From Paraspadella gotoi (Eukaryota > Animalia > Chaetognatha): a stretch of DNA of 64,000 nucleotides. Positions within the stretch are counted from its first letter, which is position 1, and each line of letters begins with the position of its first letter. A model generated the notes under the pieces. The model ran no database searches. It saw only the letters and a list, made by a program, of their open reading frames with translations, and had not been told where the DNA came from. The DNA is taken from the NCBI GenBank assembly GCA_051294375.1, contig CM119263.1, forward strand, positions 8,433,398 through 8,497,397, read 5' to 3'. Below are positions 3,885 to 33,905 of the stretch, one piece after another. The translations under genes were made by a program, and so were the position numbers.

Positions 3885-4136
3885 ATGGTAACAGCCGGGT
3901 TGCCTGTGATGCCCATTGGGATGGGGCATCTCAATGTTGGCTTTGGGGGCTTCCGACCCACAGTGACACATCCAGTCACTGGCGCGGTTACCCTAGGACG
4001 GTCTTGCTTTGCCAACGCAGAGGGAAGTCATTAGGACTGTGGATGGAACACAACGCCTGGGATGGTGTGTTCCCCCTCTGAGCCAAAGGTATTGGCTGAG
4101 CGATGATGGACGTGAGGCGGTGTGAATATACCGCCA
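3885..4136. repeat. GC-rich structured interspersed repeat, SINE- or retroelement-UTR-like
   Basis: GC island in AT-rich DNA with local hairpins (GGAACAC/GTGTTCC, GGCGGT/ACCGCC). It shares ordered motifs (TATGGYAAC, TGTGATRCCC, GGCATCTC, GGCTTTGG, GTCACTGG) with the reverse complement of 55151-55340. Confidence 0.4.
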
Positions 4137-4814
4137 CAATATCTAAAAAATTTGAACATAAAGGGGTGGAGGGGATAATTTGTTATGGGATTAAGGTTAT
4201 TTATGATTCGTTATTGTTGAATGTTGAGGGTTAAGACTACAAAGTAGAATTGTGTGTTCTGATAGAGATACATACCAGGGAAAGCTTTTTAAAGAATGGG
4301 GCGTCCTTATATATTAGATGTAAATTTGATTATCTTTTGATAATATTTTAAATTGAATACATTTATTTATTTTTTAATAATTTTAATATATATTCAAAAT
4401 AATTTTTATACATATTCAAAATAATTTTCGAGGTCATCAGTTGGAACCTATATCCTTCATCTTTCGGCTCTTTAATCCTAATATCCAGATACAGGCGAGC
4501 CATCACCAAAAAAAAAATTTTGAGGTGGGAACCGAGTAATTCACCAAACTTCTTTTTTAATTTTATTAAATTTTTTTAATAATGTTTTTTTTATTATTAT
4601 TATTACTATTTTTTTTTTATTTATTTATCAAAAATTAAGTATTTTTATTATTGGTTTAATATTCTTAGAATCTTTTTTATTTTATGTCTTACGTTGTTTT
4701 CAATAATTAGGAGAAGAGCCTGTTGACTCACTCAATCCTTATTTTTTGAAATAGATTATTAATTTAATAGAGATTATTATTTTATAATATTATAATATAT
4801 ATATATATGTAAAC

Positions 4815-5873: not shown

Positions 5874-6121
5874 ATATACACTATTTCTAGATAGATTATT
5901 AAAAATGAAATAAAATCTGAAAATTCTGAACAAATTCTAATTAACTGAAGCTGCTTTCCTAGGAATACAACTGTCCATATATGGATAATTAACAATATAT
6001 AAATTAAAATCATCACTTTTATCATAAACAGAAAAGATTAAATTATATTAGAACTGTCTTAAAACCACCGACAGGCATTTAGCTGATCAATGCTGTATTA
6101 AGGTGAGCCATCCTACAAAAA

Positions 6122-8512: not shown

Positions 8513-9599
8513 AATAATCGGCAGAAGCCAACGAGAACGAGAGCCCACCGGTAAAAATGCCTGCCTTTCCTTTAGTAGATGGACGGACGTGCAAGCATCA
8601 ACAAGCCTTTGACGATGTCATGAGAACAGAACATATGCTACGGTTTTATCTTAATTCTAAACTTTGCTCCGGGCGAAAGCTGCGATGAATCATGTTTGCA
8701 TATTTCTCAATTTGGCACACAGGACACACCAACCCTCTCTTCGCCTTCTCGTCAACGCCGAGATTCAAAACGTGTTCGTCGATTCCGTGATCTTCCGGTT
8801 ATTTCTCCATATTTGCCACGAATAAGACGTCGCGGCGGGTGACGTTAAATTAGATTAACATTAAAATATCCACTAATTAGATAAAATTTTGAAAAACTTA
8901 ATTTTAAAATGCAGTTGGTTGTTTTATCCCAACGACTTGCGAGTTCGAGGCACAATATTGATCTGAAAGAAAATTTGGCCAGTTAATTCAATAGCAAATT
9001 TAATTACGGTAAGCCGTAAAGTAAGGTATTAGCTAATATTATTAAGTATAACAAATTTAAATTGTAACTATTAAGTACAGCGGCCGTGATGTCCGTCTGC
9101 TCGTTCTAAAATTAAGCTGACGCTGAATGTCGCCTCTCATTGCTCGCACGCTTCCTATCCCCTTCAGGACTCGAGGCGGACGGACGAATAGAGGAGAAAT
9201 CGAAAAGGAAAAATTTAAGAGAAAGAACGACGACGACAACGACGACGATGTCAGCCACGAGGTAGAGAACGACGACGACGACGACAACATCCACACCAGC
9301 ACGAGGCTGATCCCCCCCCCCAACACACACTTTAAGTATCTCTCTAACTCTGTCCTTGACTCAGCGAGGCGCATTAGGAAGAGGAAAACTCCGTCCTATC
9401 TCAATGTGAGCGGGAGTATCTTTCGAGCAATTGCTGAATAATTCATTTTTAAGACGACAATGAGAATTAGACTATAATTTCAGGAAATAATTTGAATACA
9501 AATCGTAGAAATCAAGTTCGATTGTGTTATTGTGAATGTTTTAAATAAAAAACCTTGAGGAATTTCACGAAATTTTGGTTGTAACAATTTCATATTAAG

Positions 9600-10040
9600 A
9601 TACGATTGGTTGCCACTTTTCGACAGCCTAATCCGATTGGACAGAGAAAGACGTCACTTGGTCAAGTTTTATTTCTGTTGGCTCGATTTTCGGTCGATGA
9701 CAAAGATATGACGTCAATGAATCTCATTCTCAAACCTATTGCGTTTTTACCTCGCGATTGGACAAATGCTTTTCTCCAATTATAATTCGCTCACACGTGA
9801 TATTTTTCGTTTCACGAAATTAAGTAAATACAGTTCAAAAAAAATTATTTTAATTGACTATTGCAGCAAAATATGACCTAAACATCATTTTAAGATATTT
9901 CGAATCCAATATTACAAAAACTTGCACAACCTACTTCAACAAAGTCTACGTCGTCGACTAGTAATATCAAACAACGTCACCAATCACTGAATCGACGAAT
10001 AGGAGGCGGAGACTTGAGGAAATGTCTCGTGACTACCAAT
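9600..10040. promoter_or_regulatory. Putative bidirectional promoter with CCAAT boxes, CRE/ATF site and E-box
   Basis: Clustered ATTGG/CCAAT (about 9605, 9636, 9757, 9776, 9906, 9980), perfect TGACGTCA at 9709-9716 and CACGTG at 9794-9799, lying between divergent gene models. Confidence 0.55.
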
Positions 10041-13000
10041 CTCCTCGCGACGTAAGTATAGATGTTTCTTTTGGTTTGGTCTCTGCTTGCCTCTCGCACT
10101 CTTTTTCTTTCTTTACTTTTTTCTCTCTCTCTCTCGGCTTCGTTGCTGGTTCGCAGCTCGGAGGAGACAATTATAGACAATTATCCCACGAAATTTTAAA
10201 ATTTCTAATTCTAAATCTTAACCTATTATTATTACCTATAGTTTCCTTTTATTTCTTAACAAAACAGGTCGCTTCGAATGTAAAATATTTTGAATTGCGG
10301 AAAGGAATCTCTTAATGTGAATTTTGGGTGGATCTTCATGTGGCAGAACGGTTCAACCTCGACGACTTTCTCCTGGACCTCCTCGGTACTGATTATATGC
10401 GCTTTGGACTTTGGAAACGCGTCTACAAAATCTTTGGCGCCATCCCGGGATTTACGGCTCTACCAGTACCAGATACTTCTTCTCCGTCCACTCCTTTAAT
10501 TTTATTGGGTATTCGTTTCAACGTAAACTCGTTGGGCCTTCATCATAAGATTCGACGAGAAGTGCTCGAGCACTTGGAGACATTCTCCATCCAGCTTTCA
10601 TCCCTCTGCGGACTGTTGGAGACAAAGTCCCGTGGTCAGTGCAGGACTTTCAATACACCCTCCAAGATTGAAACCTGCTTTATCTCACTCTGGGGTCCTT
10701 TGTCAAACAAACGTGATAATTTGGATGTAAAATAACTAGCGGTCGCAAAGTTAACATTTGTAGCAAATATTCCACCCTTTGTAGTTTTTTAATTTTAATA
10801 TTCCAGCTTTTTATCAGTTGTCGTCCTGTAGACGATCTTTTCCCAATTCGAAAATATCTTTCGTATTTATTGACATTTTATACTTTTTCTCTTTATCCAT
10901 GATTTTTTAACAATCTTGGTCCTTCTTGTCTAGCACTTGTCTACATCCCATTTTGAAAGCAATATTCAAATAGGTTAAAAATTAACCATCATTTCAAACT
11001 AATCCAGCACTTTTCTATTTTGAAAAGAATGTTTAAAAAATTTATCTAAAAAAATGTAATTTAAATACATTGTATTTTGTTGGTTATTCTTGTTTAGCAT
11101 TTGTCTACATCCCATTTAGAAAAGAATGTTCTAAAATTTGTCATAAAAATGTAATTTGTAAACATTGGATCTGTTCCGAATGTTGTGTACAGTTAGTAAT
11201 TTTGGCTTTTTTTAAAAATGCTTTTTTTGTGCAATCGGAATTATTAATTTCCCTCAAAAATTGCCTTATATTGCTAAACTGCTTCTCTTATGTAGCTGCT
11301 AATATTTTTCACAAAGTGATTACTTTTTTTTTTGCAGAAAAGCATATCAATTGAATCAATTGCAACCCTTGCGTCTGGTGATGATGAAACATTCGATGGA
11401 ATTCGATGCGAAAAAATTGGTTTGTCGTCTGATATGATTTTTAATCCCGAGGCGACGACCGAAAAGACTACGAATGAAACGGCGACGGCGGCGCAGACTA
11501 TGATCGTGGGCGAATCAGAAACAAAGACTGTGATACTAAAAGACGAGGATTGCTATGTCGCCCAAGACGAAACAGATGACGTCGTCCGCGACTTTGACAA
11601 AGCCGGTCAAGCCGTTGATGACGCTGACGACGCCGATAACTCTGATATCATCGCAAATAACAATGACCGCGACGCTAAAAAAGTCAACAGGGCAGCAGAT
11701 TTCTCCGTTGATGCCGACACCTCCTCCAATGACGCTTGCAACGCCGACACCCGTTGCCAACTCGACCAAGCAAATAGTCCCGTTGATGACCACGATAACT
11801 CCGTTAATGACGCCGCCGACGTACGGCTTTTCGACAACATCCAAGTTAACGGCCAAACAAAACCACCTAATGTCTATGACGCCATTCACCAAATTGCTTA
11901 CGCCGGACGGGATCACACCGTTAATGACGCCCGAAAAGAAAATGCCGTAGGAAACTTGAGAAAAGCTGTCGGTGATGCGAACTTGATTTCCATAGACAAA
12001 CCGATTGATGAGGTTAATCGCTCGAACCATAAGGCCGATGCCAATGACCCAACCGATGGCCCTGACGATGATTACGAAGATGTCATTGTTGTCGACGAGT
12101 CGTCCTCTTCAGCGCCATTCTTGGTCGACCAAGACGAAGCAAGTTCTCCGTCGACCATATCCGTCGATGCCTGCGAGACCTACGTCGACGAGGGCGATGG
12201 GATATTTGATCGGTTGTCGCCGCCCATCGCTTCGTCGCGAATCGGGGAGGACGATTGTGACGAGAAAATTCGAGAAAAGATGTCGCCGGAAAAAGTGAAC
12301 GGCGGGGAGACGACGCCGGAGGAATCGGCGACGTTGGAATCCCGCGGGGAAGTACTTACGCTCGCCGAAGCGGCGCTCACTTATTCGAGGGTAAAGAACC
12401 GAAACAAGATGGCGTCGGGGACGGAAATTAACTCGTCTAGTCGGAATGTGACTTTAACGAACGATACGGGAACCGAGACGATGTTGAACGACAACGGGGA
12501 AACTATTCTCAGAAACACGATGGAAAAGGAAGTTCCCTTTGTTCCCTTTGTGGCGGAGACGACGACGATGACGCTGACGCTGCGGGGAACGACGGCCACG
12601 ACGTTGGCAGTTGAATCCGACGACGATGAGGCGGCTGCATTGACCGTTGCGTCCTTGGCAAGGAGCGAGGCAAGAATTTATTTTAACCAATCGTTTTTAG
12701 CATTATTCTAATATCTATTGTCGAAAATCTTTTTCTTCGCGTTAAATTGGAATTAGAAAAAAAATGTTTTCGACTTTAGTTTCAAGTCTTCATCAGTACT
12801 TGTGAAATTACAAATTTTTTGCTGTACAAGAAATGAGAGAGAGAAAGAGAGAAACAGGGGGGGGGGTTACCAACAAAGAATTGAGAAGAATACGATAAAG
12901 AAAGTATCTAAAAAGTGAAAAAAATTCCAACTTTTTTCTAAAGCATTATTCTATTTATAATTAAAGATTGTTATTCTTCTGTTGTCATATTTGATTTGTT

Positions 13001-16000
13001 TTTATATCTAATAAAAACCGAAATTCAGGCCAACGACGAAAGCGCACCTTCATTGGGAGCCGACCCCGCTGCCGTCTGCGCATTGAAAAACCCTTCTCCC
13101 ACCGAAGCTCAAATGTCACCCCACCCGGCACCAGATTGCATTCTCACGGCTGCAATGGTCGCCGCTGACATCGGATGCGATTTCGAGTCGACGCCGACCT
13201 CCCCAATTCCAGAAGATCCTGGTGCCGCTTTGTGCGGTGTCGCCGTTCCCGACGCGCCCGTGGCGTCACCTTCCTTGGAATCGACGAGTTTCGGCAGAGT
13301 TGATCGTGTAATCGCGAATCCGGCGCCGACGACGACATCCAGCATTTCCTCGTTAACGCCGCTGTCGTCCACTCCCTCGTCAAACGTGTTCCGCGTCGTC
13401 CGTACGGATCAGGGATTCCTACGCGTTGTGTCGCCGGCTAACGCTGGGAATCTCTCCCTTGACGGCGGAGTTCTTATGGGCGCGAGGTATCGAATCTTGG
13501 TTCCTTCGACCATCGACTCCGGGGAGCAAACACAAATATCGAATGTTACTATGCCGACACAGTCTCAATCTACGCGGCCATCTTCTCGGCAGCCACGCCG
13601 GCTTCAACCTCCCAGTGCCGGAACTAAGGGTAATTCATTAGGTAAATAAAAATAGAGAAGTGGATTTACCTAAAAAATTCATGAGGAAGTATAACTTTAA
13701 AAAAGTTTCTTTGTACAATGTAGGAACGAAAAAATCCGCTCCGAAATCTTTCAACAACTCCGCGTCGTCTTCGTCACCGTCCGCACGAAGTAAAAGAGAA
13801 GCGACGCCCGAATCCACGAAAGTGGACTCGAGCTCCAAGGTCGGAACTACGGAGAACTTGATCAAAGACAAAGTAAGAATTTTAAGTAATTTACCGCATC
13901 TTACTTATTATGCTTATATGTCAGCTTGGTATTAAAAGAAAGTTGCAATGTTGTAAAGTGAGATTTCGGGATTTAATAATTTCGGGGAATTCTGTCTCCA
14001 GACAAAGCGGAACCTTGAACGCGACCGAGTTGCAAACTGGATGCTCATTGATCACGAATACAGCATCAGACCGCATTTCGCCGGTGCGTTTCTGCAAATG
14101 CTTCTATACCATCGCTAGAGAAAATTATCTATTTATAACCTAAGCTGATTTGATATATGAAATTGGTACAACCAATATATATTTTATTTAGCCCAAATAG
14201 TTATTAGGTGATATATTTTTTAAAAACTCGCTTATGGTATTATGATATTAAGTTCAGCAATTCATTTCTAAAGAATTTTTTGTTGTATAGCAGCCTTTTT
14301 TTCACCTGAGAAGATAAATTACAACCGTCCGTTATATTTTCAGATAAAAGCGGAACAACGTTACCAGACGATCGATCGGATTCTCAAGAACCATCAGAGC
14401 CTCTTTCCATGACGTCTTTTTCGTCGGCTACTCCAGCCACGGAGAATCTAGAAGATCAATTGGCACGAATCGCGCGCGAGGCAGAGTCGCAGCAAATTCC
14501 CGAATCCTCGCAATACCCTATTACTGAGCGGCATGAACCGACTCCCCCGCAACAACAACGTCCTCAAGATACCCCGCCGCAGAATCCCGTGGCGTCAGCT
14601 GCCTCTGTGCCTGGCGTTGAACTGGCTCCTATGCCGGAGTCTCGCAAAGAATTACCGTTGCTTAAGGTTAGTGAACGTGATAACATGACAACGAAGGAAG
14701 CCGTTAATGGCTAATTTTAATTTTAATTGTGCCGGTAATTTTACATTTTCTTGTAGGGAAAAAAAATGATCGATCGGGACAAACTTCCTAGTTGGACTCT
14801 AATCGACCACGAATACAGCGTGAGGCCTGATTTCGAGGGTAAGTATAAATGTATGTAGTCGCCCAGTCCACAAATTAAACTCTTTACATAACCAGAAAAA
14901 ATATCGCGAATCCTCCGACTATGAAAGTTGCAAAATTACTTGTTTCGTTATCTTTATTTTTTTTTTAGATTTAAAATAACTATTTATGATTTCATTTATT
15001 TGTTAAAATATTTTTGTATTAAATATTTTAATATACTATCATCGCAGCAAAGAATGACTATCATCGCAGCAATGAATATGACTATCATCGCAGCAATGAA
15101 TATGACTATCATCGCAGCAATGAATATGACTATCATCGCAGCAATGAATATGACTATCATCGCAGCAATATTTGGTTATCATCGCTTCAATCAATTACTA
15201 TTGCATCAATAATTTTTTATCGCATCAATCATTTGGTATTTTTTTTAAATTTTTTCATTAATTTTCTTTGATAGTAACGTCTGGCGAGATCACTATACTT
15301 TTAAGATTATTGTTTATTATTTAATAATAAAATCTGCTATTGCAATTTGATTCCGCTTTAAGGGGACTGCATAGTCTACTTTCGTGATGAGGAGAAGCAA
15401 GGATGCGCGCGAACGAGAGGCGTTGCTGATGAGTGTCCCTCGCAGATCGGAGAAAAGATTAAGATTAAGGGGAAGAAGAGGCTGGTGAGTTGGATGACAA
15501 ATGAGAATGTAGAGAAGACTCCTGTAGTAAATTGGAAATTTTATTCTTCAAAGATTTTTATTAAATAAAGTTAATGGCTGCCTCTTGGCAGCCTTAATTT
15601 CTCACTGCCCTGCTTGTTTTGTTAGAACGTCTACGCGTCGCGCGGCCGGCCTCGAAAATCCGCTCAACTCTTCGGCGACGATGAAAGCGACGATGACGCC
15701 GACGCCGTCGACGGAACGCCCGACGTCGAGGATGAGGATGAAGCCGACGAAGAAAAGGAAAAGAGGGAAGGGGAAGAAATGCCCGTCGGCGTTAAAAAGG
15801 AGAGGGAGGAAAGGTCGGCGAGGGAGTACGACAAGTTCACCACCTGGTTCACCAAATTCGCCGAGAAGAACGGAGCGAAAAGGCGGAGGTTTGATACCTG
15901 AGATTATTAAGGCTCTGGTCGGATTTCCTTCATTTCAATTATTTTCAGACATTCATTCTGGAAATCCTTTATTTCAGAGCTCAAGTCCCAGACGGGAGTC

Positions 16001-19000
16001 GTTTGGAGACCCTGAACAAGGACGTGGAGTTTCTAACTCGAGGACGAAGCCGAACGGCCCCGAGGATGAACAACCTTAATCCAATCCTGTCGAGGAGGCT
16101 CGCCGGTAATGATCTTGCGGTTTGGGTCTTATTGTGTAGGACATAAACTCTCGTTGTAGTCCGTCGCTCTTAATTTCCTTTTGTAAAAGTGTTTACAAAT
16201 ATAAACAAATCAAATCGATTCATAAAAACAGGCCAATGAAATAAAACTTACATAAATAATTTTAAGGGTCCGTAACGAAGGACGACCGCGTCGACGCTCC
16301 TACAAAACAATACAAAAAGCCGCAAAGTATGCAGTATGCACTATACACTGACATGATACGAACGAACATTGTTCGGTTATAATGCAGTAATGAATAAATA
16401 CTGTCTTTATAGGTCCTGCTCACGACTCGTCCCGTCCGGCTATGACCGTAATGGACCTATCAGACATCAAACCAATCTCTTCCGAAGGTGATAACAATAA
16501 TACCAAATCGAAAATATCAAGTATTACTATAAGCGATGTCTTTTGTACTGGTATGACCGAGCGTTTTTTTCTTTCATTTTCGTAGATCCAAACGAATCGG
16601 CTAACAAAAGAACTCCACCGCGATCGGGGGTAATTTATGAGACAAAGGGGGTGCAAGCAGAGATATATATTTTACATTATTTATGTTAACTCAGTATTAA
16701 CTTAATATTTGGAGACTTGTAGGTGGATTTATAATTTGAAATCTGAGAGTACTAGTTTCACCTATAATTTTAGACTGCATCTTTTTTGTCGCCATCCTCA
16801 ATGGAGAAAACGCCTGATGATCCTACGTCTGATCTGAGTAGCCTTTTACCTCTCCCGCAAGGTGAGCTATTTTGGATTTTCGTAATATTAGTCAATTTAC
16901 GATGTAACTTAGCCCAAGTTAGTCTTTATGCAATCTTCAAATTTTTTTATCCGTAGGTGGACTCTCGGACATCGAAAATATGTTCATTAACTCGGTCCTC
17001 GAAAACATCGGCGGTGGTGAAACTGACAACGAGACCATGTCCCCCGTCAAACCGGTTAAGGGCCTCGCCACCGTTACTGGAGCCACCACCCCTCCTGTCT
17101 CTGTCAACGAATGTGACAGCCACTGCGCCGTGACTTCGGTCGAAACCTCGGCAGGTAATCGTCTATCGAGATAGTATGGCAACTGCCCTTGTAGGTTGGG
17201 CATTTCACCTTTTGGCGTTTGGGGCTTTGGACCATCAGTGGCGCCACCTCCAACTGGCGCTGTTTTACTTGTACCAACACTGATTGCTAACGAGGAAGTC
17301 GTTAGGTCTGTAGATATAGCTCACTGTTGTGATGGTGGGTTTTCCCATTAGGATTGGCTGAATGCAGCAAAAGGTGAGGCGGTGTGGTTAGATGACCACA
17401 ATAGCATAAACGACGAACCAAAGAGCAATAGTTTCAAACGTGAAAAAAATGTCTTTTCTTTAGCTATGTTTATTTTCTTTATTTCCGACGCTCAAGCCGA
17501 AAATGTCGTCGTGGAAAAACTTCCTAAGGAGGCGCAGATTGAGAGCTTCGCCGGAAATCGCGATGCGCCGTCGAGATCGACGTCTCAGGGTCCGTACTAA
17601 ATTCCGTTGTATTATTCTGATATCCCCTTTTTTTGTTTATGTTGACAATCTGTTCTCTTTTTGTAGATCCTCTTCATGATCCTTTGAAGCTCGCCGCCGA
17701 CTCTGACTTCAAATCCGGCGCCGAGCATCAAAGCGCTCCTTTCAAAGATGTCGGAAATTTTGGGGAGAACGTTTCTGGTGAGACGGAAGAGTCTTCAGGG
17801 GGTTTCTTTCAAGTTGTGCAAGTAGCTTTGAAATGATTCGGTTAACCGGTTGACTGAATGGGAAATTGGGAATGATAGTGAACGCTCATGATTCCGACGC
17901 GCGTTTCTAGGAAACCGCGAAGCGATCGAGGCGGCGATGCGGATTCTTTCTGAGGCGATGCTCAACGACCCCATGATGACGCAGAACCTCAGCGAGCTAC
18001 TGACCGAAGAAAATTTCGCCGAATTTTCCGCCATGGTGAGTCTACGCGAGGTTATCTTGGAAAGTTCGAAAAGTATGGAATTGATTATGGAAATAGAATT
18101 GTGTATGTGCACTGAGAGCGCGTTTCTTTCGGTAGGCAAATCCGAACGATATTTATCAAGAGACGCATCCTCCTGTTGGGGCTAACTTCGAGGACCCTTC
18201 GACTAGGTGAGTTTTTTTTCTTTATCAGTTTATTAGTAAGTAAGTAAATGGAACGAATTCATTCCGACCAGGGCGACGGATACCACCGCGATTCCGCCGG
18301 AGGCGAAAACGGAGTCGGCAACTGCGCCAGCGACCTCCTCCGTCGCTTCCAAGTTCGGAGGTATGCTTTGTAAATAAACCTTAAAAGACGTAAGTTTTCG
18401 TAAGATATTTATGGTCTTAACCTTTATTAAAGGATTATTCGCCGCTTCCCCTCAAAAATTTAAAGATGGCTTGACCCGCCTTCTGGAAAGGTTGGTCAAC
18501 TTTGAAATATAGATTAAAAATGCGTAACGCCTTCTCAAATTCGTCTTCTCCCCCGCCTTTTTTTCTTTTCTCAATCTGTCCTCTCAAGTCCACTCAAGAA
18601 AGACGATCGGCGAAAAGATCTTTTCTCTTTGAACATCGACGACTCTGGCGGAACCATCGACGCCGTCGGCGGCACTGCGACGTTGGCATCTTCTTCGGGG
18701 CTGGAGTTATTTCCCGAAGCGGTCCTTAATGAGGACTTGCCTTCCTTCAACGTTAACAGTCCCGTTCGGCCAGGCGCGTCGTCCGTCACCTCAACTCCGA
18801 TTCACCCACTTTCCGCCGCATCCCTCGTGCCCGGTCTTCCACCCGCTCTCGCCTCCACCGCCTCACTCGCTTCCGCTCCCTTTCCTCCCGCTCATTGGTC
18901 GTCCCAGCTGCAGCAAATCACGCCGCCGCCGCAAAAACTGCCGTCGCCGCCAAATCCCCAGCCGTTGGCCTCCACTCCGTTGCCCCCGACGCTGACTACT

Positions 19001-22000: not shown

Positions 22001-25000
22001 GGTGTCTTTCCTTTTCTCTGGGTCGTATAAAAATATTGACGCAGAAAAAAAAACTATATAGATGTTACTGTAACAGGCCGTAACGGTGCTTCCGGTTTAT
22101 TCCAGTGGAAATTCAGTGAGGAAGGGAAGGGGGAAATGCCGAAGCCTTAGATATTTTAGACATTTGTATAAAAAAAAAAAGTTTGAAATTATGTGCATCG
22201 CTGATCTTTTTCATCCATAATAAATCAAATCAAATCAATCCAGATCCTCTTCATCTTCTGTCCATCGTCGTCGTCGGAGAGGGTTGACCGACCGTGACGC
22301 CACTCCGGAGGCGGTATTGGCGCCGCCGCTTCCTCACTCGACCACCTCTTTCCCCATCTCCTCCCCAGTCCCTGCTTCTGCTTCTCACCCAGTCACTGAC
22401 TCTACTCCTGAAGGCCTCCCCGTCCCAGTTCCCGATTCTCTTCCCGCTATTCCAAAATCCAACGTCAAACCTACTACCTTCTCCGATGACCACAAGCTTC
22501 AAGTCACCCCTCACGTGAGACTTGAGTGCATAAGCGGAGAAGTGGAGGCTTTTTACCGGCGGAGCAAGAGGCCCGTCAAGCAGAAAGTAAGGAATTATCC
22601 TATACTTCTATTTTGCATAGCGCTGTTACCAACTTGTTTAAAATCCAACATTCATTCTTTCTTTCCTCTCGAATTCAATTGTTGTTCGAATAGTTGACGG
22701 TTTGCATGTTTGCCTTGTGTTTCGGTTTTATCGCATATTTGACTCGAAATATTTTTTTTGGTAGTTAACCATAATTTATTTAATGATTAACTAATTTTTC
22801 CGTCCGCCATTTTTATAGGCTCACGACGACGACGAAGGTTACGCGGTTATGGGCATTAGAAAGTCGACTTCGACGGAGGCAACGCCAACATCGAAAGCAG
22901 CGGAGACGAAGACGAAAGACACTTTGACGTCACCGAAGACGTCGGCGATAGCTACGATGACGATGTCACCAAAGGAGATTGAAGATCCTCCATCCATCTT
23001 AAAAAAGGAGACGAGTAAGTCGGGCAACTGTAGAAAAAGGGTTAGGATAAATGGGTGTTGAAAGAAGAATCTCGCGGACGTATGTAAGTACCCTCCTATA
23101 TGAGTTAACGTTTGTGAATAAAATATGGGGCCCTTTTTTTTTTTCCAATTATATTACGTAGTTGATTAAGATTTATAAGGGCCATGTTTTATCGCTCGTG
23201 TTTGACAAAGTTTTTTTCAATTTTACAGAGCTCCAGCGTTCTCAGTCCGCCGCACGTTCTCCCTCCTCAGCCCCGAGGCCTACCCTCTCCTGTTTTGACT
23301 GTTCCGCCTCTTTTTGTCGCCCCTCCGAAGTAGTCCTCCACCAAATGTCGACCCACTCCACCTTCCGTCCCTTCGTGTGTCTCTTCTGTGGCAAGTCCGC
23401 ATCCAAACGTGACCGAGTACGAAAACATTTGCGGCTGCACCATGACTTCGATGAGGAAGAAAGTGGAAAGGGTTACAGCGTGGAAAATCTCATGCAGGTG
23501 GCCAAAATAAAGGAGGGAAAAAAATAAAGAATTATATAAGAGAACCGAGAATTTAAATAAGTGATTTTTCTCGTAGTTGAAGCGAAAGTTGAAAGAACTG
23601 GGCGGCGCCGAATCGGAAGCAAACCGAAAGTTAAAGTTTGGCGATGAATCGGCTCCCCGCGCTGTCACGCCGGAGTCGACGGCGACGCCTTTGACTAGTC
23701 CCGGTTCCGAATCAACGCTTCATGCCTCTGAGGATGAACCACCCTCTCCAACTCGGACGGTTGCTTCTTCGTCGAGGTTAGTCTGTTTTTTAAGAGATTG
23801 ATATTAAGATAAAGAAATCCTCAATAACTCTTTTATAATCTCTTACTTCAGACGGAAAAAACAAAAGATTCAAGTGATGTACCAGTGTCGAATTTGCAAG
23901 AAGTTAACACAAGGCCGATCTGCTTGCACGAAGCACTGTCTGTTTAAACACGGCATCCCTAAGAAGGCAGTAGATTGCTACATCGGGGTTAAGCAGGTTA
24001 GAATGAACTTCTTTTAATTTAATGTTCTTTTCTTCCTAACGCGAATTCTTTTATATATATATATTAATAAAAAAAATTGTTTAGGTCAAAGTCACCTATG
24101 AACCTGTCCCCAGCTACAAACGCTTGAACCGCGAGAGAGAAGAACGTTCCTCTGTCGCCTCGTCTAAATCTTCGGCTTCATCCAAATCCCCCGCTTCGTC
24201 GAAATACGCTTCTCCAAAATCAACCGCCGCAGCATCCTCCTCCTATTCGACTGCTAAATCTCTCACATCGCGCCCCACATGGAAAGTTTTTCCTCCTGAA
24301 CCGTCGATTGATGCTCCGAAAGTAACGGCTAACGTCGAACGAATGCCTCTCGAATGCGAAGTCAAAACGGAAGTAAAAACCGAACCGATGTCGCCCTCTC
24401 AGACAACGATTGAAGAACCGCAGGAAATACGATCCGTGCCGGAAACTGCGTCGACGGGACCGGAAGCGGTAGCTGGCGAAATGTCGGCGAACAGTTTTAA
24501 CCACTACGATGCGGAAAAAACCACGAAGGAAGCAATGGAAGAAGGCGACGGTGTGCTCGATGATGGAGGCTCCGATCTTTCTCTTACTCGATCTGTGACT
24601 CCCTCTCTCGTTGAATCGACGACGTCTACGAATAAGAAATTGGCAGAAACAATGGCCAAAGTCGGTGCTAATCCTTTGTCGCCGATTCGCATATCCCGAC
24701 GTCGTTCTTCCGTTGCAGATTATCCAGAAAAAACTGCGTCTCTAGGCCCGACTTTAATATCGCCGACCCCCAAACCATCTAAATATAAAGGGTGGGTATA
24801 CGTGACGGAGTGGGTTCCCGCCGCGCAGTTGGTAGAGGAGGAAGAAAGAAAAGGGAAGAGGGATCGGGGAAAGAGAGGGAAGGAAGCGAATGTGAACAAG
24901 AAAAGCGACGAGCGATTGGGACAAGGGACTGCTAGCGAAGAAGCCTACAGAGGCTTAGAAATAGATGAGCGCCCAGAATTGAATAGCAAACTGGAAACAA

Positions 25001-28000
25001 ATGAAGAAGAAGTCGAAGAGTTGGTTAGAGAAGCGATCTTAGAAGTTGACAAAAGATCAAGCGAAGAACCAGTAAGCGAATTGCAGGGCGTCGTGGCAGG
25101 AGATGAGGAGGAAGAAGAACCACCAGGAGTAAGCCTGAAAGCAATATTGAGCGACGTTGGCGAAGTATCGGGTGGAAAAACTGACCGAGAATCGTTTCGA
25201 GTGTCCGGAAAGAAAGGGTTACGTCACGACGATTCGTTTCTCCTCGTGAAAGTCGATGTTAATTCGCGAGTTTACATCGCAGATTCTGATATCGATGAGA
25301 ACTTATCTCCCTCCGAAGGAGACCAGGGTAAACGGCTTAAGGCTAGGTTTTCTTCTAATGACAAAAAAGATTTAACGGTAGACAATTCAACAAAAGTCAA
25401 TGCCTCCTCTATTGCTCTTAATGAAATAAACGACCAATTAAAAGAGCAACGCGAGAAGGAAGATTCGTCCGTCGCCGCGACGATTGCGGAAAAAGATAAA
25501 AATTCTATAAATAGAATTACATCCATCGATCCGGACATTTTACAAGAAAACTTGAAACTTTCATTCGGCGAGAAACATCGATCTCAACGTAAAGGGGCCA
25601 AATCGGTTGAAATGCAACGCATTTCTGCTGACGAAGAAAACAAAGAAGGCGACGACGGCATCTTATCGCAGACAACAATCGCTGACGCCTTATATCGCTC
25701 GAAGGAGGCCGGTTTTAACTCCTTCGCCGCTGCGCCTTCTCCTATATCTGAAGCCGTTGCGTCTCCCACTCCTAGCGTCGCGTCGCCATCTCTTTCTTTG
25801 TCCGAGACAGAGCGAGGCCGCCCCATGAGCACGCCGTCCTCTCGTCGCTCCTCGCGCGCCAACACGCCGTCCTCGTCGCGCCACCGACGCCGCCAACGTG
25901 GCGGCGTTGTTTCGGCCGCCAACTCTCGCTCCGCCACCCCTGAATCTCGTCGCCATCGCGCCACACTTCCAGACCAGTCGGCCTTCCTCCCTTTATCGGC
26001 CCTTCCTCGTCCCCTTTTCGATCCCCGACCCGCCGTGTCGAAATTTCCCGGCTCCTCCCTCCACCATCGTCGCCATCGTCCTTCCGCCGTCCTATCCGCC
26101 GAGCAACTCATGCGAGTAAACGCCATGCGAGCCCCACTGCCGACGCCGCTCGATGCGCGTGCCAGTCGGCGAGCGGCGACCGTGGGCGCCTCTTCGCCGA
26201 TCGCGCGTGCCAACGAGAGCGCGGCGATGGATACCGCGGACGAACGCGACGACGTCGAATCCAACGAGGCACGCGCATCATCGAAGGAGGGAGAAAGGCG
26301 GGATTCGGGTCCAGTCTCGTCGCTCTCCTCGTCTCTTCGACGTCGCCTCGCGCGTCCCCCCGACCGAAAAGCGGGGGCGAAAACGAGTAGGGCGCGGGGC
26401 GAGGAGAGCGAGGTCGTAGAGAGAAGGAGACGCGAGGAATCCAGAGAGCGAAACGAGTCGGGCCAAACAGGACAAAAACGAGTCGATGGGGAGGGACACG
26501 CTCCGAAAGGAGCCGAAGGAGGAGGAGGAGGAAACACGAAGAAGAACGAGGAGGAAGAGGAGGAGCAAGATGAAGAGGAGGAGCGCGTTGAGAGTCGCCG
26601 AAAGGGAGCGAAGCGTCGTCGGGAAGAGTCGGACCAATCAGAGACCGAGGAAACGGGTGGAGAATCAATCCGAGATCAAGACGACCTAAAGGACGACGTC
26701 GAACCGGAAACGACGACAACAACGACGACGCGTGCGGACGGAGAAGGAAAAAGAGAAAGAGCGTCCCGTTCGAAAAAGGGTTTCGTCGACGCGGACGACG
26801 ACGACAACGACGACGATCGGAACTCGTCCCTTCGTGTGTCGGTCGCTCGAAGAAGAAAGCGACGGCGACTCGATGCTTCCAGTCTTCCTTCGGCATCGGA
26901 GAACGATGACAGAGACTCCTCTCGCGAACGAAAAATACCTCGGAGAAAAACCGGATTCCGTCATTCAAACTCGGTCGACGACGAAGTAGAAGACGCCTCG
27001 ACTCTCCATCACCATATTGCGCCAGTTGAAGCTAAAGACTGTGACAGCGACGCTTGTCGCCGTTCTCAAGGTAACAAAAAAACGTCGTCCGCTCCTGTAG
27101 TAGAATTATTGCGGCTTCCGGTCTCGGTCTTGCATATGCCAACCGTTAAGATCCTAGCACCGCGAATCCTTTCAGATGAAGATGACGATCTCGATGTTGA
27201 AGAAGACGTCAAGCTCTCGGGAAGCGAGCTAAATCTTAATTCCTTACATCAACGACAACAACAACGCAGCTCGCAACCTGCGACCGAAGTAAAATCTGAA
27301 AAGGCGTATCGGACGGAAAACATCGTCTCGGCGGACAGGAAAAAATCTATATCCTCGCGAGACAAGGTCGAAGACAAGAACGAAGAATCGCGAGACAAAG
27401 TACAACGACCGCGCCTCTCTATCGACGCCGCCTCTGAGTCATCGTCCTCCCTCGAATACTCGTCCTCCTCCCCCCCTCGACGCCCCGCCACGAGAACGAC
27501 GCCGTCTTTCCCCCCTCCTCCTCATCGTGGCGCCGCCGGCGTTGTTACTCGGCGTTCTCTCTCCTCGTCTTCCTCCTCGGTGCCACGCAGGCGCGGCTTC
27601 GCCGCCGCCGCCGCCGCCGACATGCGAGCCTACAGCGACGAACGACGATCGCGACGACCGAGGAAATCTTCGTCGGGATCGTCCTCGATTGCGAAGCCGA
27701 CGTGGATGACGACGATGACGAGCGACGACGAACACGAAGACGATAAACTCGTCGTCGGTTCGGTTGCGTCGTCGTCCTCATCGTCCTCCTTTAGGCCGAA
27801 AGCGTTTGACACGGAAAGCGAAATGGCGGAGGAAGCGAGTCGTGCAGAAAGCGAGACTATGCCCGACACGAAATCTTGCACGAACGTTAAGGCCGTTGCG
27901 GAGACGGAGAATAGAGAGGGCGATGATGCGACAACTCCCGAACCGACGACCTCTAATTCAGCACCGCTTCCGTCGCTCGTTTCAACGCCACAATCTCCTC

Positions 28001-31000
28001 TGGCCGCCGATCCCCCGCCGCCGTCCCCACCGACAACTATGGGTATTTCGCCGCCCGGCATTCAGGTCAAGAAGCCCGCTGTTGGGTCCATTGGCGGCGG
28101 CGCCACGAAAAAGAAGCTTTCTCTTTCCGACGTGGTGGCGTCCTTATCGGTGAAGGCGGCGTCGGCAACAAAGGAAGTATCCGAGGCTGTGTCACCGAAC
28201 TCAGAGACGGAGCCCCCGCGTCGGAGGACAATGGAGTGCGGAAGGAGGCGGTTTTTCAAGCCTCCGGCTGCTGCTGCCGCTGCCGAGACCGACAAGCGCC
28301 TCTCTCCGCCCATTACCGATGTCCTTTCCTCCCTACCCCCTCGGCCTCCAGCGCATCTCCTCTCAGTTCCTCCTCTCCTTCTAAATGCCAACTCTTCCGA
28401 TCCGCCTTCCGCGTCTTACCCCACTTCCTTGTCCGCGCTTCACGCTTCGCTCCCAGCTGCTTCCCCACCGCCCCTCTCTACCTCCCCCTCACCCGCCAAA
28501 CGGGCCCGCGGGTTCGCGCCGCTGGACGAACTGCGGATCCGGCACCGCGCCAACCCCAAGACTCAGATCGCCGCTGAACCTTACGCGCCGCCTCAGATCG
28601 GTGTCCTTTCCATCTCTCTTCTAAAAATGTCGTCACAGGCGGCCTGCGTCACTTGCGCTGCTTGCCGAAAACTGTTCACCGTGACGGGGTTTGTTGGACA
28701 CGCCCACCATCGGCTTCACATGAGCGACGATCCTCCGCCTCCCGTCGATCTCAACACCAGGTTCGTCAAGGACTTGAGCGTGAAATCGCTCGTTGCCGCT
28801 CCGTTTTTATTTACAGTTTAATAGGAAACCTACGTATTTATTAAGGTTGATTTTTCTTTTGCCATTGTTGTTAATTTAAATTCTCACTAGTTATTAAATT
28901 ATTTAAAATTTTTTTAAAGTTCAAAAAAAGAAATTTGGCGAAAATCCATTTTTCTTCTCAGGCTTTTGGAATTTCATCCTCCACCGGAAGCTGTTGGACA
29001 TCCAACTTCCAAAGCTGCCGCGACCCTCATTGCTGACATTTGGTCATCAATATTACGAAAGCACAACCGTAAGATCGAGGTCGTGACTGCGACGACGACG
29101 ACCCCTCCGTCAAAAGCGGCGCCAACATCTGCAGCCAGTTTCGGAGAGAGTGTCGCCGCCGCTGACGAAGCCGAAATAAGAGACGATTCGGATGCACGGG
29201 TCAAGGAGAACGTGGGAATCCAGGTGCAATATAACGAGAAATAAAATTTGAAGCCAGTTTAATTGAGGTTTTAACGTTTTCTTTTTGCCTTAGGCCTGCT
29301 TCCCCAACATGGAATTTGAGGATTCTTCATCCGACAGCGATTCGGAAACTCGGCGTGATGCCGTATTTTCCCCGACACAGCAGCATCAGGAACTGCAACA
29401 ACCGCAAATGCAACTTCGGATGCAGCAGCGGTTACTGAGCGTTGCTGCCAGTCGACAGTTGCAGCATAATCATAACATCGAAGTCATTAAAATTTCCGAA
29501 CGATACGAAGAAGGGGAAGGTGAGATATGGAAGTTTATAGATTATTTTACGTCCTAACCCTGTCTGAACTTTTTTCTAAACACGTGCTACTTTTTATAAT
29601 GTCTTTATTTTTTTCGGTTTTTCTTGGACCTTTTCAACGTCTTCTCCCCCCCCCCTCCTTTCCACAGACGATCTCGACGAGGATTTGGACGACGAGGAGG
29701 TGGACGTTTATCAGTCCGAGCGACGTCGTCGGATGATGCCAGAAAATGAAAAAAACCGGCCTCTGAGCGAAGTCAGCGATTTGGACATCATCCGCGTCGA
29801 TGCTCTCGGAAAAGAGGTTAAAAATGTTTTTTAGGATTTTCTTTCAATGATCAAGAAATGCTCCATTTTTCATTTTTTCCTTTTTTTCCCCCTTTTCTCT
29901 TCAGGACGATTCACACGCTCAGTGGAGCGACGATGAGGAACTTCTCAGTCCATCTTCTTCCTCGTCCGCCCCATTTTCCTATTGGGGCGACGACGCCGGC
30001 GGGCGCGGAGTTTTCTCCGTTCAACCCTCGACCCCGGAGCAGCCGTCTCGCCTCGCCAATGCTACACCGGCGAGAAGAACCAACTGCGGCGTTTGTCAGG
30101 GTGAGAAATTTGCTAGAGGCTTTGTAGTAATTCAAAATATTTGAAAACTGTTTCTTTCCGTCTCAGGGTGCAAGGTGCCCAACAACTGCGGAACTTGCGC
30201 CCCTTGTCGGAACAAAAATCTCAAGAAAAAATGCGTGCAGCGTCGATGTTTGGCGCTGCTCACTGATCCAAGAGGAAGGGTGAGTCTATATTTTTTTTTC
30301 ATTTGTTCTCTTTTGTATGAATATTATTAATTCCTTTTCCAAGAAATATTTGAATAATATTGATTGATATTTGATATTTTGCGTATATATTTTATTGTTA
30401 TTTGTTCTTGTGCTTAATAAATCGTAATAAAGAAGAAAAAAAATTTCAGGCAATACACGTCGAAGACTCCCCGTCTTCCGATATCAAGATCCTAGAAATA
30501 CAACTCGTTCTTCCCGAAGACGGTGATCCAGATACCGCTCCCACCGCTGCCGATTTTACCCCCGCTTCACGTGCTACAATCTCACCCAACGCCACTCTCG
30601 CCGACTCTTCCCCGCGCTACTACCCTCCTATGCAGCAGCAGCAGCAACAACAACAAAAGCAGCAACCTCAGACGCAGTTCTCGCAAAGGGCAACCCCCGT
30701 CGTCGCACAACGTTACGTTACTGGAGTAGCCGGTGAGGACTTGGGAAGGAACCGTGAGGGAATAAGTTTTTTAACGTTTGTTTATGATAATTACATAATT
30801 ACAATAATATATACATGTATTTTCATTATGGAGAAAAACAGGTGCATTTAAGTTAAATTTTAACCAAAAAAATTTTTTTCCCAAATATTTCTACTTATAT
30901 TCATAAGTCATCATCAGTGGATTAATAGAAAAATTGATATTGTAAACACTAAACAGGGCAAAAGAGAGAGAGAGAGAAATATATATAGATATAGAGAGAG

Positions 31001-32400
31001 AGATAACATAAATGACCATGAACATTGAACAACAACGATAATTCAAATATGTTGCGCCGCAGTGACTACCTTATCACGTGTATTTCTCGTGACGTGGCAG
31101 TACATGATTACAATAACTTTCTTAATCTTAGCCGGTGTATTTATGACACGCACTCCATCGGAATTTCGTTTTATATATATTTTTTATAGTTTTAGGATTT
31201 CCTAAAGGCAGCGCTAGCAGTCCCTTAGATTTGTGGTTTTTTCCTGTCTTAACAAATGAGCAACCAACTATATACAAGTTATGAGCATTTTTAACGCAAG
31301 TGAGACAGACCGACCGAAAAGTGACTTATCGAGTTTCTCCGCGAGTACTCGCGGCGCAACTAAAAAGAAAAAAGGTCATGAGTCACAGAGATTGTTCCCC
31401 GTTTACTCGATCCTTTTTTCTATTTATCCACTGATGATGACTTTTGAAATTAAGTCGAAATATTTGGGGGTAAAAAAGGTTTTTGTTAACTGAGCCTGTT
31501 ATTCTCCATAATGAAAATACGTTTATATTATTAAATTTATGCAGTTAAAACATATATAATTACAATTTTTAGTGGCGACTGCGCCGAAGAAGCTGCGACG
31601 CGTTCTTAACTGCGGAAATTGCGCGCCTTGTCTGACCTTAGAAAATTGCGGTAAATGCGCCACCTGCATGACGCCGGAGTGGAAGCAAAAGTGCGAGCGC
31701 CGTCGGTGAGATTTGTGGGAGATGTCCTTTCTGACTTTCTTTCCAACATTGCTGCATATGACTTATTTCTATTATCTCAGGTGCGTCCTGCTGCCTCCGC
31801 GGGACTGGGGTCAAAAGTCGATCGACAAGCGAAGAAAATGGGAGGAAGAGGAGGACGAGGAGCGAAAGAAGGAGGAAGAAGTGACGGTGAAAGAGGAAGA
31901 ATGGGTGGAGGAGTCGAGAAAGAGAAAGAGAGAACTCTCGTCGCCAGAGAGAGAAGGGAGACCAGTAAAGATACGAGTGAGAAAAGTAGAGGACGAGAAG
32001 GAAGTCCTAGAGGGGCAGGAGGAATTAGAAAAAGATAAGTCGGAGGAGAAAAGCGAAGCCACGTCGACCGAGGAAGAAGTCGATGATTATCGTCGGCCAA
32101 ACCAGACGGAGAAACAACGACCGGGCCTTCTCACGCGGAGTCAAAAAGTGGATATACAGGTCGGTTAATTGATTCTTTCCGGAAAGATACTTTGAAATTA
32201 TGGCTAGCCAATTAGTCAATTAATCAACTTATCCGTGATTACGTTTCTAGGTGGTCGAGTTGTCCAAACTCCACGATCTCCGTCGGTCAGAGATGATGCA
32301 GTCGGCCTGGCGGAAGTTGCGGCGCCGAACTAACGACGACGACGACGGATTCGGCGTCGTTATTCGTCGGATGACGGAAGCGAGTGGCGGTGTATCGTGA
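10022..32400 (+). CDS. Giant (about 4,500 aa by hand estimate, 44 exons) Ski/Sno-domain, C2H2 and CXXC zinc-finger nuclear protein
   Basis: All 43 junctions traced in phase from ATG 10022 to TGA 32398-32400. Ski/Sno/Dac-like domain LPAIVLDGVPMIRLADIHHQ|VLRD...SCVVVTPDVAHSVIDSY (about 19000-19745). C2H2 fingers at 23290-23445 and 23880-23950. Ski SAND-like module AACVTCAACRKLFTVTGFVGHAH (about 28640-28710). CXXC fingers at 30084-30250 and 31611-31785. AT-hook RGRPRK at 15641. One exon is 4.7 kb (24086-28760). Confidence 0.8.
10268..10735 (+). mobile_element. Degraded reverse-transcriptase fragment, DIRS/Ngaro-like, in intron 1 of the Ski-domain gene
   Basis: Translation NLDDFLL...SSPSTPLILLGIRFN...QLSSLCGLL resembles the DIRS-type RT pattern YLDDFL...PST.L.FLG...LQSL.G.L. 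There is an upstream in-frame stop at 10313. Confidence 0.55.
10923..11170. repeat. Diverged local direct duplication
   Basis: TTCTTGTYTAGCAYTTGTCTACATCCCATTT and AAAAGAATGTT...AAAAATGTAATTT...ACATTG each occur twice. Confidence 0.7.
12764..12799 (-). ncRNA. Degenerate minimal hammerhead ribozyme core
   Basis: Minus strand reads CTGATGA-A-GACTT-gaaacta-AAGTC-GAAA; the cleavage triplet is lost. Confidence 0.5.
15035..15168. repeat. 24-bp intronic minisatellite, about 5.5 copies
   Basis: Unit ACTATCATCGCAGCAATGAATATG in tandem without spacers. Confidence 0.95.
21355..21451. repeat. Interspersed repeat fragment
   Basis: Near-identical reverse-complement copy at 44117-44212 and a partial copy at about 14155. 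Confidence 0.8.
21590..21960 (+). mobile_element. Highly degraded non-LTR (LINE) RT remnant
   Basis: Stop-riddled frames give IEQGLQRYGTLT (QG motif-like) and SIINDIIILSN...KLLNNIEE*C (YADD region-like). Confidence 0.3.
31190..31364 (-). mobile_element. DINE-1/Helentron-like non-autonomous element
   Basis: Reverse-complement homolog of 46031-46250, with TTTAGTTGCG terminus, palindrome CGAGTACTCG and GTCY tetranucleotide repeats. Confidence 0.6.
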
Positions 32401-33600: not shown

Positions 33601-33905
33601 CTGTCCAGCTGAGGCTCGAACTACAAAACCGGTGTTGTACCGTTCGTTTTCACCAGTGTATTTAATAATTATTTTAGTATTAAATATTCAGAATACGTTT
33701 TGTTATAAGACTCCTATATTATGCATGATTTTAGCCATAGTTCGCGTCGCTTTAGTTTTTCTTCTCCGATTCAAAATCATCTTAGTTAATTCATTTGCAT
33801 CTGATCTACTGTCTGTCAAAATTTTATTCCCCAGTTAATTTAACGATTAATTTTGATATTAAGTAAACTTAGAAGAACATATTTTAACTCGATAAAACCA
33901 AAAAA

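What the first reader, a model, noticed from the sequence alone, without database searches (positions are those of the whole stretch)
10022..32400. Giant Ski-family protein with an unfamiliar chromatin-scaffold architecture
Seen: one phase-consistent 44-exon model carries, in order, two DHEY motifs, an AT-hook, a Ski/Sno/Dac-like domain, three C2H2 fingers, a Ski SAND-like C2H2 module and two CXXC fingers. Known: canonical Ski/SnoN/SKOR proteins are much smaller SMAD co-repressors with no CXXC or classical C2H2 fingers. Inference: this may be a lineage-specific fusion linking SMAD-type co-repression to direct DNA/CpG reading. I do not recall such an architecture but cannot search for it.
Basis: partly seen in the sequence, partly recalled or inferred. 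Interest (0 to 1): 0.8.

Follow-up and report, generated by a model that had tools for sequence, protein, structure and literature searches.

The report
Giant Ski-derived scaffold with CXXC fingers
An expressed animal gene encodes a predicted 4,400-residue protein in which one clear and one likely, worn-down relative of the two signature domains of the Ski repressors lie far apart among zinc fingers of the kind that read unmethylated DNA, so it likely acts as a DNA-reading chromatin scaffold rather than as a classical Ski signal repressor.

Summary
The architecture is largely real. One 11,092-nt spliced RNA contig matches the gene with no mismatch where shown (9865-19921); its remaining length lands exactly on a splice donor at 27070 if the model's later exons, including the 1,075-nt intron, are spliced. 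So two DHEY motifs, the AT-hook, the Dachshund-homology-like (DHD) domain and three C2H2 fingers likely share one ORF, with the Ski-type zinc SAND core (Pfam pass) 520 codons further in the same frame. The joints to the two CXXC fingers were not seen directly. The DHD-like match is weak (13 bits, 0 of 2,000 shuffles, 18% identity). The Ski family test fails on spacing (2,281 aa against 111-182), the Smad4-binding tryptophan loop and the co-repressor groove. Both CXXC fingers are TET3-type; only the second keeps the KQ CpG-reading pair. Best reading: an HCF-1-docking, multivalent DNA-binding scaffold, not a SMAD4 co-repressor. No homologue was found, but searches were weak, and a non-canonical invertebrate DHD+SAND family exists in the ESM Atlas. 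The scan had not noted this elsewhere.

The parts
9865..10051 (+). First exon of the RNA contig (5' leader; holds ATG 10022 of a 25-codon upstream ORF)
   Evidence: table 8 (record 1-187), joint 10051>10268
10268..12669 (+). Exon 2: about 1.17 kb more leader, then the start of the long ORF (ATG 11434), acidic low-complexity N-terminus; GC donor at 12670
   Evidence: piece 10268-12667, joint to 13027-13029
11434..32400 (+). Long ORF over 43 coding exons, 4,439 aa, 77% disorder-promoting residues
14002..14083 (+). 82-nt exon with HCF-1-binding-motif-like DHEY no. 1 (14050-14061)
   Evidence: RNA joints on both sides; motif fits E/DHxY (PMC2814863)
14757..14838 (+). Duplicate 82-nt exon with DHEY no. 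2 (14805-14816)
   Evidence: 51 of 82 nt and 14 of 27 aa identical to the first; codon positions 19/20/11 of 27 identical; RNA joints
15638..15661 (+). AT-hook-like RGRP motif
   Evidence: Pfam AT_hook 16.3 bits, just under the cut-off 17.4
19016..19742 (+). Diverged Dachshund-homology (Ski/Sno/Dac)-like domain over three exons (to 19081, 19485-19602, from 19675; GC-AG first intron)
   Evidence: splicing fits contig offsets; own HMM from 25 Ski/SKOR DHDs: model positions 11-93 of 96, 13 bits isolated, 0 of 2,000 and 0 of 300 shuffles
21169..22243 (+). 1,075-nt intron, the main candidate gene boundary; likely spliced
23291..23443 (+). Two C2H2 zinc fingers
   Evidence: Pfam zf-C2H2 E 8.8e-5, 23.2 bits; pattern
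23886..23951 (+). Third C2H2-pattern finger
   Evidence: C-x2-C-x12-H-x4-H pattern; no Pfam hit
24085..28760 (+). 4.7-kb exon, mostly low-complexity spacer, ending in the SAND-like core
   Evidence: 1,578-codon open frame
27071..27175 (+). Likely optional in-frame 105-nt intron inside the large exon; the RNA contig is computed to end at its donor
   Evidence: end maps to 27070; 6 of 4,676 positions have a donor this good; acceptor weak and not shown
28624..28719 (+). Ski-type zinc SAND-like core (C-x2-C-x11-H-x-H); possible C-terminal helix in the next exon (from 28962)
   Evidence: Pfam c-SKI_SMAD_bind pass; top PDB hit Ski 1MR1, E 0.062; own HMM 18.9 bits, 0 of 300 shuffles
30085..30249 (+). 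CXXC finger 1, type-3 spacing, split by an intron, no Gln in the DNA-reading loop
31611..31784 (+). CXXC finger 2, type-3 spacing, KQ pair kept
   Evidence: Pfam pass; top PDB hits TET3-type CXXC, E 6.7e-5, ungapped
32251..32400 (+). Predicted last coding exon and stop; AATAAA-type signals about 600 nt downstream

Best explanation
This expressed gene encodes a predicted 4,439-residue, likely mostly disordered nuclear scaffold, likely derived from a Ski-type DHD+SAND ancestor, that likely binds DNA through several small modules and likely docks the co-regulator HCF-1, rather than blocking SMAD4 as Ski does. Shown: spliced RNA for the 5' part, the order of motifs, the Ski-type zinc core and two TET3-type CXXC fingers. 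Inferred: (1) the AT-hook, the basic DHD-like winged helix, three C2H2 fingers and the zinc SAND core give multivalent DNA or linker contact; (2) CXXC finger 2, with its KQ pair, restricts binding to unmethylated C/CpG while finger 1 adds affinity only; (3) the duplicated DHEY exons bind the HCF-1 Kelch domain and so bring in HCF-associated histone-modifying complexes; (4) if the animal is an arrow worm, where methylation marks transposons and not genes, the protein would partition onto unmethylated, gene-containing chromatin and away from transposons.
For: One contig joins the exons with 0 other letters in the 8 pieces shown; 14 of 14 offsets fit and the end falls on a donor at 27070; 78% of sampled words of 22200-30300 are in the same run against 78.5-80% expected if all exons are transcribed, 70% if the RNA stopped at 28760 and 49% for the one contig alone. 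DHD profile hits one place in 4,439 aa, nearly full length, and scores best in the RNA-supported splice form (13.2 bits against 1.6 with the middle exon skipped). SAND zinc ligands keep Ski spacing. Both Ski-like modules are in Ski order. Smad4 loop and groove are lost (PMC11222659, PMC2944819). The DHD helix-2 region has charge +3 against -3 to 0 in 17 of 17 distinct Ski-type segments; a basic surface there marks the DNA-binding DACH domain (PMC2944819). CXXC2 aligns without gaps to TET3 CXXC with KQ at the HQ position (PMC3685328). DHEY fits E/DHxY; 0.13 expected by chance, 2 seen, in duplicated exons under purifying selection.
Against: No binding or localisation was tested. The DHD match is far below database significance (13 bits; hhalign probability 6%, E 0.006; 9 of 26 near-invariant columns kept, CLPQ motif lost) and Pfam finds nothing on the single exons. 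Nothing beyond 20000 was laid on RNA; my parse was wrong at 6 places in the laid part, so exact agreement at 27070 could hide compensating errors. AT-hook and C2H2 hits are under Pfam cut-offs. The one distinct SKOR-type helix-2 segment is also slightly basic (+1). A four-letter motif is weak evidence for HCF-1 binding. No orthologue was found, so conservation of any module across species is untested. The organism's group comes from an unchecked AI note.
Confidence: 0.5

Rival explanations
1. It is a much enlarged Ski/SnoN/SKOR orthologue that still represses TGF-beta/BMP targets through SMADs, with added fingers that tether it to DNA.
For: Both Ski-like modules, in Ski order; best Pfam and PDB matches of the zinc core are Ski. 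SKOR-type sequences among the fetched loci also lack the HWGF loop, and a Ski mutant unable to bind Smad4 still represses through Smad2/3 (PMC11222659).
Against: Spacing 2,281 aa against 111-182 in 30 of 30 canonical sequences; 3 of 16 groove residues kept; the family-wide tryptophan after the zinc site is missing; no C-terminal coiled coil in a crude scan.
Confidence: 0.15
2. It is this lineage's member of an older, unstudied invertebrate family of long DHD+SAND proteins; the layout, perhaps including the fingers, is shared with other animals and is not a new fusion. This is compatible with the scaffold mechanism and bears on novelty.
For: ESM Atlas cluster of 52 proteins, representative 937 aa, Mollusca commonest, PF25867 'DHD' in 98% and c-SKI_SMAD_bind in 75%, with a diverged SAND (TM 0.69); a further arthropod-rich cluster of 104 with the SAND-like family alone. 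My homologue searches did not even recover canonical Ski.
Against: The cluster line lists no C2H2 or CXXC family; no relative was found by three word-indexed searches or one HMMER scan of 1.84 billion proteins; PF25867 could not be tested and that it means Dachshund homology is my reading of its name.
Confidence: 0.35
3. The model joins two genes or two transcript ends: a break at the 1,075-nt intron (operon-like read-through), or CXXC exons that belong to a separate or alternative 3' end.
For: The exon before the long intron runs on to a stop at 21238. Arrow worms have operons and trans-splicing (PMC12460157), if the group is right. The donor at 27071 is phase 1 and could also join the phase-1 exons at 29668, 30167 or 31573, skipping the SAND core; this genome has loci with alternative 3' cassettes by earlier notes.
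Against: With the intron retained the contig end falls at 25995 on no feature, spliced it falls on a donor. No in-frame Met for 124 codons after 22244, and the first Met after 31573 lies inside CXXC2. Word share fits transcription through 30300.
Confidence: 0.12
4. The DHD-like match is a chance or a more distant winged-helix relative, and the protein is an unrelated zinc-finger/CXXC scaffold that carries only a small SAND-like zinc knuckle.
Against: The DHD hit is collinear over 83 positions with one inserted residue, unmatched by 2,300 shuffles, depends on the RNA-supported splicing, and occurs in the protein that independently passes the Ski SAND cut-off.
Confidence: 0.15

Closest known systems
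Ski / SnoN / SKOR (Fussel, CORL) SMAD co-repressors
   Same: DHD-like domain N-terminal to a zinc SAND-like module with the same C-x2-C-x11-H-x-H spacing; Pfam c-SKI_SMAD_bind pass.
   Different: 4,439 aa against 684-728 (PMC5992185); modules 2,281 aa apart against 111-182; CLPQ, groove and W274 loop lost; no coiled coil found; added DHEY exons, AT-hook, three C2H2 and two CXXC fingers.
Uncharacterised invertebrate PF25867 (DHD) + PF08782 proteins (ESM Atlas cluster, 52 members, Mollusca commonest)
   Same: Long proteins with a non-canonical DHD-named domain and a diverged Ski-type SAND.
   Different: Representative 937 aa; no C2H2 or CXXC family listed; sequences not available here, so kinship untested.
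Type-3 CXXC proteins (TET1, TET3, IDAX/CXXC4, CXXC5)
   Same: Short-linker eight-cysteine spacing without KFGG; best PDB matches of both fingers.
   Different: Two fingers at the C-terminal end of a Ski-like scaffold, no dioxygenase domain seen; KQ in finger 2 where type 3 has HQ, no Gln in finger 1.
MLL1/KMT2A-type scaffolds (recalled, not tested)
   Same: Very large protein combining AT-hook, CXXC and an HCF-1-binding motif.
   Different: No PHD, FYR or SET domain in Pfam scans of 28 open frames; CXXC is type 3, not type 1.

Membership tests
Ski/SnoN/SKOR | Dachshund homology domain (Pfam PF02437) | tested here: inconclusive
   No Pfam hit on single-exon pieces. Own HMM (25 distinct DHDs from 73 loci; 6 of 6 checked were Pfam-positive): 13 bits, 0 of 2,000 segment shuffles, 0 of 300 whole-protein shuffles, 18% mean identity.
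Ski/SnoN/SKOR | SAND-like zinc module (PF08782) with C2H2 ligands | tested here: met
   28.3 bits, cut-off 25, model positions 22-51 of 94 only; ligand spacing as in 1MR1.
Ski/SnoN/SKOR | DHD and SAND adjacent in one N-terminal block | tested here: not met
   2,281 aa against 111-182 in 30 of 30 loci that held both motifs, out of 73.
Ski/SnoN | Smad4-binding loop with W274 | tested here: not met
   No counterpart of the HWGF loop or of the following family-wide Trp; W274E abolishes Smad4 binding (PMC11222659, passages). Placing W274 in HWGF is my numbering from 1MR1 plus recall.
Ski/SnoN | Conserved 16-residue protein-binding groove of the DHD | tested here: not met
   3 of 16 identical in the HMM alignment to a named Ski; residue list from PMC2944819, mapped by motif spacing.
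Ski/SnoN | C-terminal coiled coil | tested here: not met
   Crude heptad scan: 1 window in the whole protein, inside the SAND core, none at the C-terminus; low-power test.
Ski/SnoN/SKOR | Binds SMADs and represses TGF-beta/BMP targets | not testable with these tools
   needs binding and reporter assays
PF25867 DHD + SAND invertebrate proteins | PF25867 domain | not testable with these tools
   family not in the held Pfam library; Atlas gives no sequences
Type-3 zf-CXXC | Eight cysteines with short linker, no KFGG | tested here: met
   both fingers C-x2-C-x2-C-x5-C-x2-C-x2-C-x8-C-x4-C; ungapped to TET3 CXXC; definition PMC3685328
DNA-reading zf-CXXC | KQ/RQ/HQ pair before cysteine 7 | tested here: inconclusive
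   met in finger 2 (KQ), not met in finger 1 (KK); binding untested
HCF-1-binding-motif proteins | E/D-H-x-Y tetrapeptide | tested here: met
   2 copies, 0.13 expected; consensus PMC2814863
HCF-1-binding-motif proteins | Binding to the HCF-1 Kelch domain | not testable with these tools
   no HCF-1 sequence in session; needs a binding assay
Classical C2H2 fingers | C-x2-C-x12-H-x3/4-H | tested here: met
   3 matches; Pfam 23.2 bits for the pair, under the cut-off 25.2; none for the third

The most novel reading that the evidence does not exclude
In a lineage whose TET enzymes have lost their CXXC finger and whose methylation marks only transposons, a Ski-type co-repressor was rebuilt into a giant reader that carries TET-type CXXC fingers and HCF-1 docks, and marks unmethylated gene territory for chromatin regulators in trans: a Ski protein that left SMAD signalling to become a methylation-sensing scaffold.
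Probability: 0.15. Interest if true: 0.8.

Novelty: new variant of a known kind. Interest (0 to 1): 0.55.

Why it matters
Ski-family DHD and SAND modules are described as DNA-binding folds turned into protein-binding ones (PMC2944819). A protein that separates them by over 2,000 residues, drops the SMAD4 and co-repressor surfaces and adds CXXC and C2H2 fingers would show the family used as a direct DNA reader, and gives a concrete, testable candidate for how an animal with transposon-only methylation tells genes from transposons. It also points at an unstudied invertebrate DHD+SAND family.

Tried and rejected
Homologue searches found nothing: word-indexed searches with the SAND stretch (149 candidates, 189-2,000 aa), the large exon (2,838 candidates, 2,763-5,000 aa) and the C2H2 pair (4 candidates), and phmmer of the SAND stretch over 1.84 billion representatives (0 at E 0.001); none recovered canonical Ski, so these blanks are weak. 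No genome is held. The Atlas does not hold the window's sequence. Single-sequence AlphaFold of the SAND stretch failed (pLDDT 40), so no fold search was run; folding with a Ski alignment was dropped as circular, and the alignment made was out of register and not used. PDB searches with DHD exon pieces gave only unrelated chance hits. Runs X2 and X3 laid only on simple repeats; no listed holder is on record as RNA, X1 is judged RNA from its spliced contig. Ski-only against SKOR-only profiles do not sort the protein (DHD 5.6 against 8.6 bits, SAND 24.5 against 19.6). Promoter-motif counts did not tell the 1,075-nt intron from the real promoter. Paper searches without result: cxxc+ski+sand domain+sponge; two of c-SKI_SMAD_bind, zf-CXXC, Ski_Sno; four of Ski family, SKOR, dachshund, domain architecture, spiralia; four of SMAD4-binding domain, Dachshund homology, zinc finger, mollusc, uncharacterized; 3 supplement files of PMC12460157 held as text had no Ski terms (tables not held as text may bear on this). 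An InterPro architecture search could not be run.


Full report
Is the gene model real? The window is animal DNA with short AT-rich introns. A splice-site and codon parse trained on clear exons gave a stop-free path of 41-43 exons from ATG 10022 to the stop at 32400. One public run, X1, holds 78% of sampled words of 22200-30300. Laid on 9600-20000 it gave one contig of 11,092 nt, depth 106, starting at 9865, with no other letters in the 8 pieces shown. Of 30 joints 15 were shown: 14 are introns of this contig and 1 is a short spurious match. The other 9 introns in the stretch follow from record offsets; 14 of 14 anchors fit a 44-exon model, in which I chose one acceptor (17497) to fit. This supports two GC-AG introns (12670, 19082) and the 118-nt middle exon of the DHD-like region.

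Does one message cross the 1,075-nt intron? The contig has 4,872 nt left after 19920, while only 733 nt of exons plus the 1,075-nt gap lie before 22244, so it must run past the gap. With the ten exons of the earlier parse (1,886 nt, fixed before the RNA was seen) its end maps to 27070, the last base before a GT donor; 6 of 4,676 positions in that exon have a donor this good, 204 have any GT. With the intron retained the end falls at 25995 on no feature. A contig stopping at a donor suggests a branch: an optional in-frame intron 27071-27175, or another acceptor. So residues 1-3246 (DHEY x2, AT-hook, DHD-like, three C2H2) likely share one ORF; I put this at about 90%. The SAND core lies 520 codons on in the same open frame. 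The CXXC joints are predicted: the word share (0.78) fits transcription through 30300 (0.785-0.80 expected) and not an end at 28760 (0.70), and the exon with CXXC2 has no Met before the finger. A SAND-skipping form from the phase-1 donor at 27071 is possible.

Domains. c-SKI_SMAD_bind passes its cut-off on 30 of 94 model positions; the top PDB hit is Ski 1MR1 (E 0.062); the four zinc ligands keep Ski spacing. To test the DHD, which is split over three exons, I fetched 73 metagenome loci with a Ski zinc-site pattern, kept 25 distinct DHDs and 38 distinct SAND stretches (the rest were cut by introns, duplicates or chance matches; 6 of 6 checked hit both Pfam families) and built profiles. The DHD profile hits one place in the protein, residues 1480-1563, model positions 11-93 of 96 with one inserted residue: E 0.002 for the whole protein, 0 of 300 local shuffles; 13.1 bits isolated, best of 2,000 shuffles 7.7; 13.2 bits in the RNA splice form against 1.6 with the middle exon skipped; hhalign probability only 6%, score 19.6 against at most 15.0 in 40 shuffles. 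This is a likely but unproven remote DHD. Both CXXC fingers have the short type-3 spacing and match TET3 best; finger 2 has KQ where TET3 has HQ and type 1 has KQ/RQ, finger 1 lacks the Gln (PMC3685328, passages). The DHEY motifs sit in two duplicated 82-nt exons with 19, 20 and 11 of 27 identities at codon positions 1, 2 and 3 and fit the HCF-1-binding motif E/DHxY (PMC2814863, one passage).

What it is not. [quoted passage not shown] Here the spacing is 2,281 aa against 111-182 in 30 of 30 loci; 9 of 26 near-invariant DHD columns and 6 of 11 SAND columns are kept; 3 of 16 groove residues are identical; the loop with W274, needed for Smad4 binding (PMC11222659, passages), is absent. SKOR-type sequences lack that loop too, so a SMAD link by another surface is not excluded. 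The helix-2 region is basic (+3) where 17 of 17 distinct Ski-type segments are neutral or acidic and the one SKOR-type segment is +1; a basic surface there marks the DNA-binding DACH domain (PMC2944819).

Mechanism (inferred). A long disordered chain (77% disorder-promoting residues) carries DNA-contacting modules and two HCF-1-type docks. CXXC2 would limit binding to unmethylated C/CpG; HCF-1 would bring histone-modifying complexes (known HCF-1 role, PMC2814863 abstract start; details recalled). An earlier unchecked note places this genome among arrow worms; I did not test that. In the arrow worm P. gotoi genes are unmethylated, transposons methylated, all three TETs lack CXXC, and operons and trans-splicing occur (PMC12460157, section 9 and passages). 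The window shows no CpG depletion (o/e 1.3), which fits but is not specific. In such a genome the protein would track non-transposon chromatin.

Novelty. No homologue and no paper was found (23, 61, 62, 75; 50), but the sequence searches were too weak to find Ski itself and no architecture search could be run. An Atlas search with a named Ski SAND domain found a cluster of 52 long hypothetical proteins (Mollusca commonest) with PF25867 'DHD' and a diverged c-SKI SAND, and an arthropod-rich SAND-only cluster; the DHD search returned only Ski, Dach-like and SKIDA1/EPOP-type clusters. None lists C2H2 or CXXC. So separated or diverged DHD+SAND proteins are not unique, and the CXXC/C2H2/DHEY additions are the part not seen elsewhere. 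The scan's own index had no like finding. Papers and 53 other than those cited were seen as search listings only; the MLL comparison and the retroelement label are recalled.

Verdict: a real, expressed, unusual Ski-derived architecture; a new variant of a known kind; function inferred, one species, no orthologue. Interest 0.55.

Noticed in passing
window 10316-10735: A 139-codon open frame (112 aa from ATG 10397) inside the 1,353-nt transcribed leader; its LDDFL and following text resemble a decayed DIRS/Ngaro-type reverse transcriptase (recalled; no Pfam hit). The leader holds upstream ORFs of 25, 53 and 112 codons.
   Followed up: partly
window 9440-9900: Likely bidirectional promoter with four CCAAT boxes and three CRE-like half sites, shared with an unidentified, low-complexity, multi-exon gene on the minus strand (about 68-9400; no Pfam hit on 6 pieces).
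   Followed up: partly
window 12670 and 19082: Two GC-AG introns in one gene, both supported by the RNA contig.
   Followed up: yes
window 15015-15310: Intronic 27-nt tandem repeat and flank with very high, mixed contig depth in X1 (2,600-4,000 against about 106), so a multi-copy transcribed repeat family.
   Followed up: no
window 33900-47790 and 39770-41900: A protein disulphide isomerase gene (signal peptide, thioredoxin domain, KDEL end) appears to be split by an 11-kb gap that holds an AMP-binding (long-chain acyl-CoA synthetase-like) gene on the opposite strand.
   Followed up: partly
window 48490-50645: A CRELD-like EGF protein gene follows the PDI gene about 700 nt downstream on the same strand; both are ER-folding genes (name recalled; EGF_CA E 0.002), an operon-like pairing.
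   Followed up: no
window 56500-58200: Exons with PAN/apple domains.
   Followed up: no
window 3860-4130, 5400-5830, 61840-62110, 62400-62610: GC-rich non-coding blocks, the last three similar to each other by their translations; likely small mobile elements.
   Followed up: no
ESM Atlas, rows 2 and 6: Unstudied clusters with a Ski-type SAND outside canonical Ski: PF25867+PF08782 (52 members, Mollusca commonest) and PF08782 alone (104 members, Arthropoda commonest).
   Followed up: no
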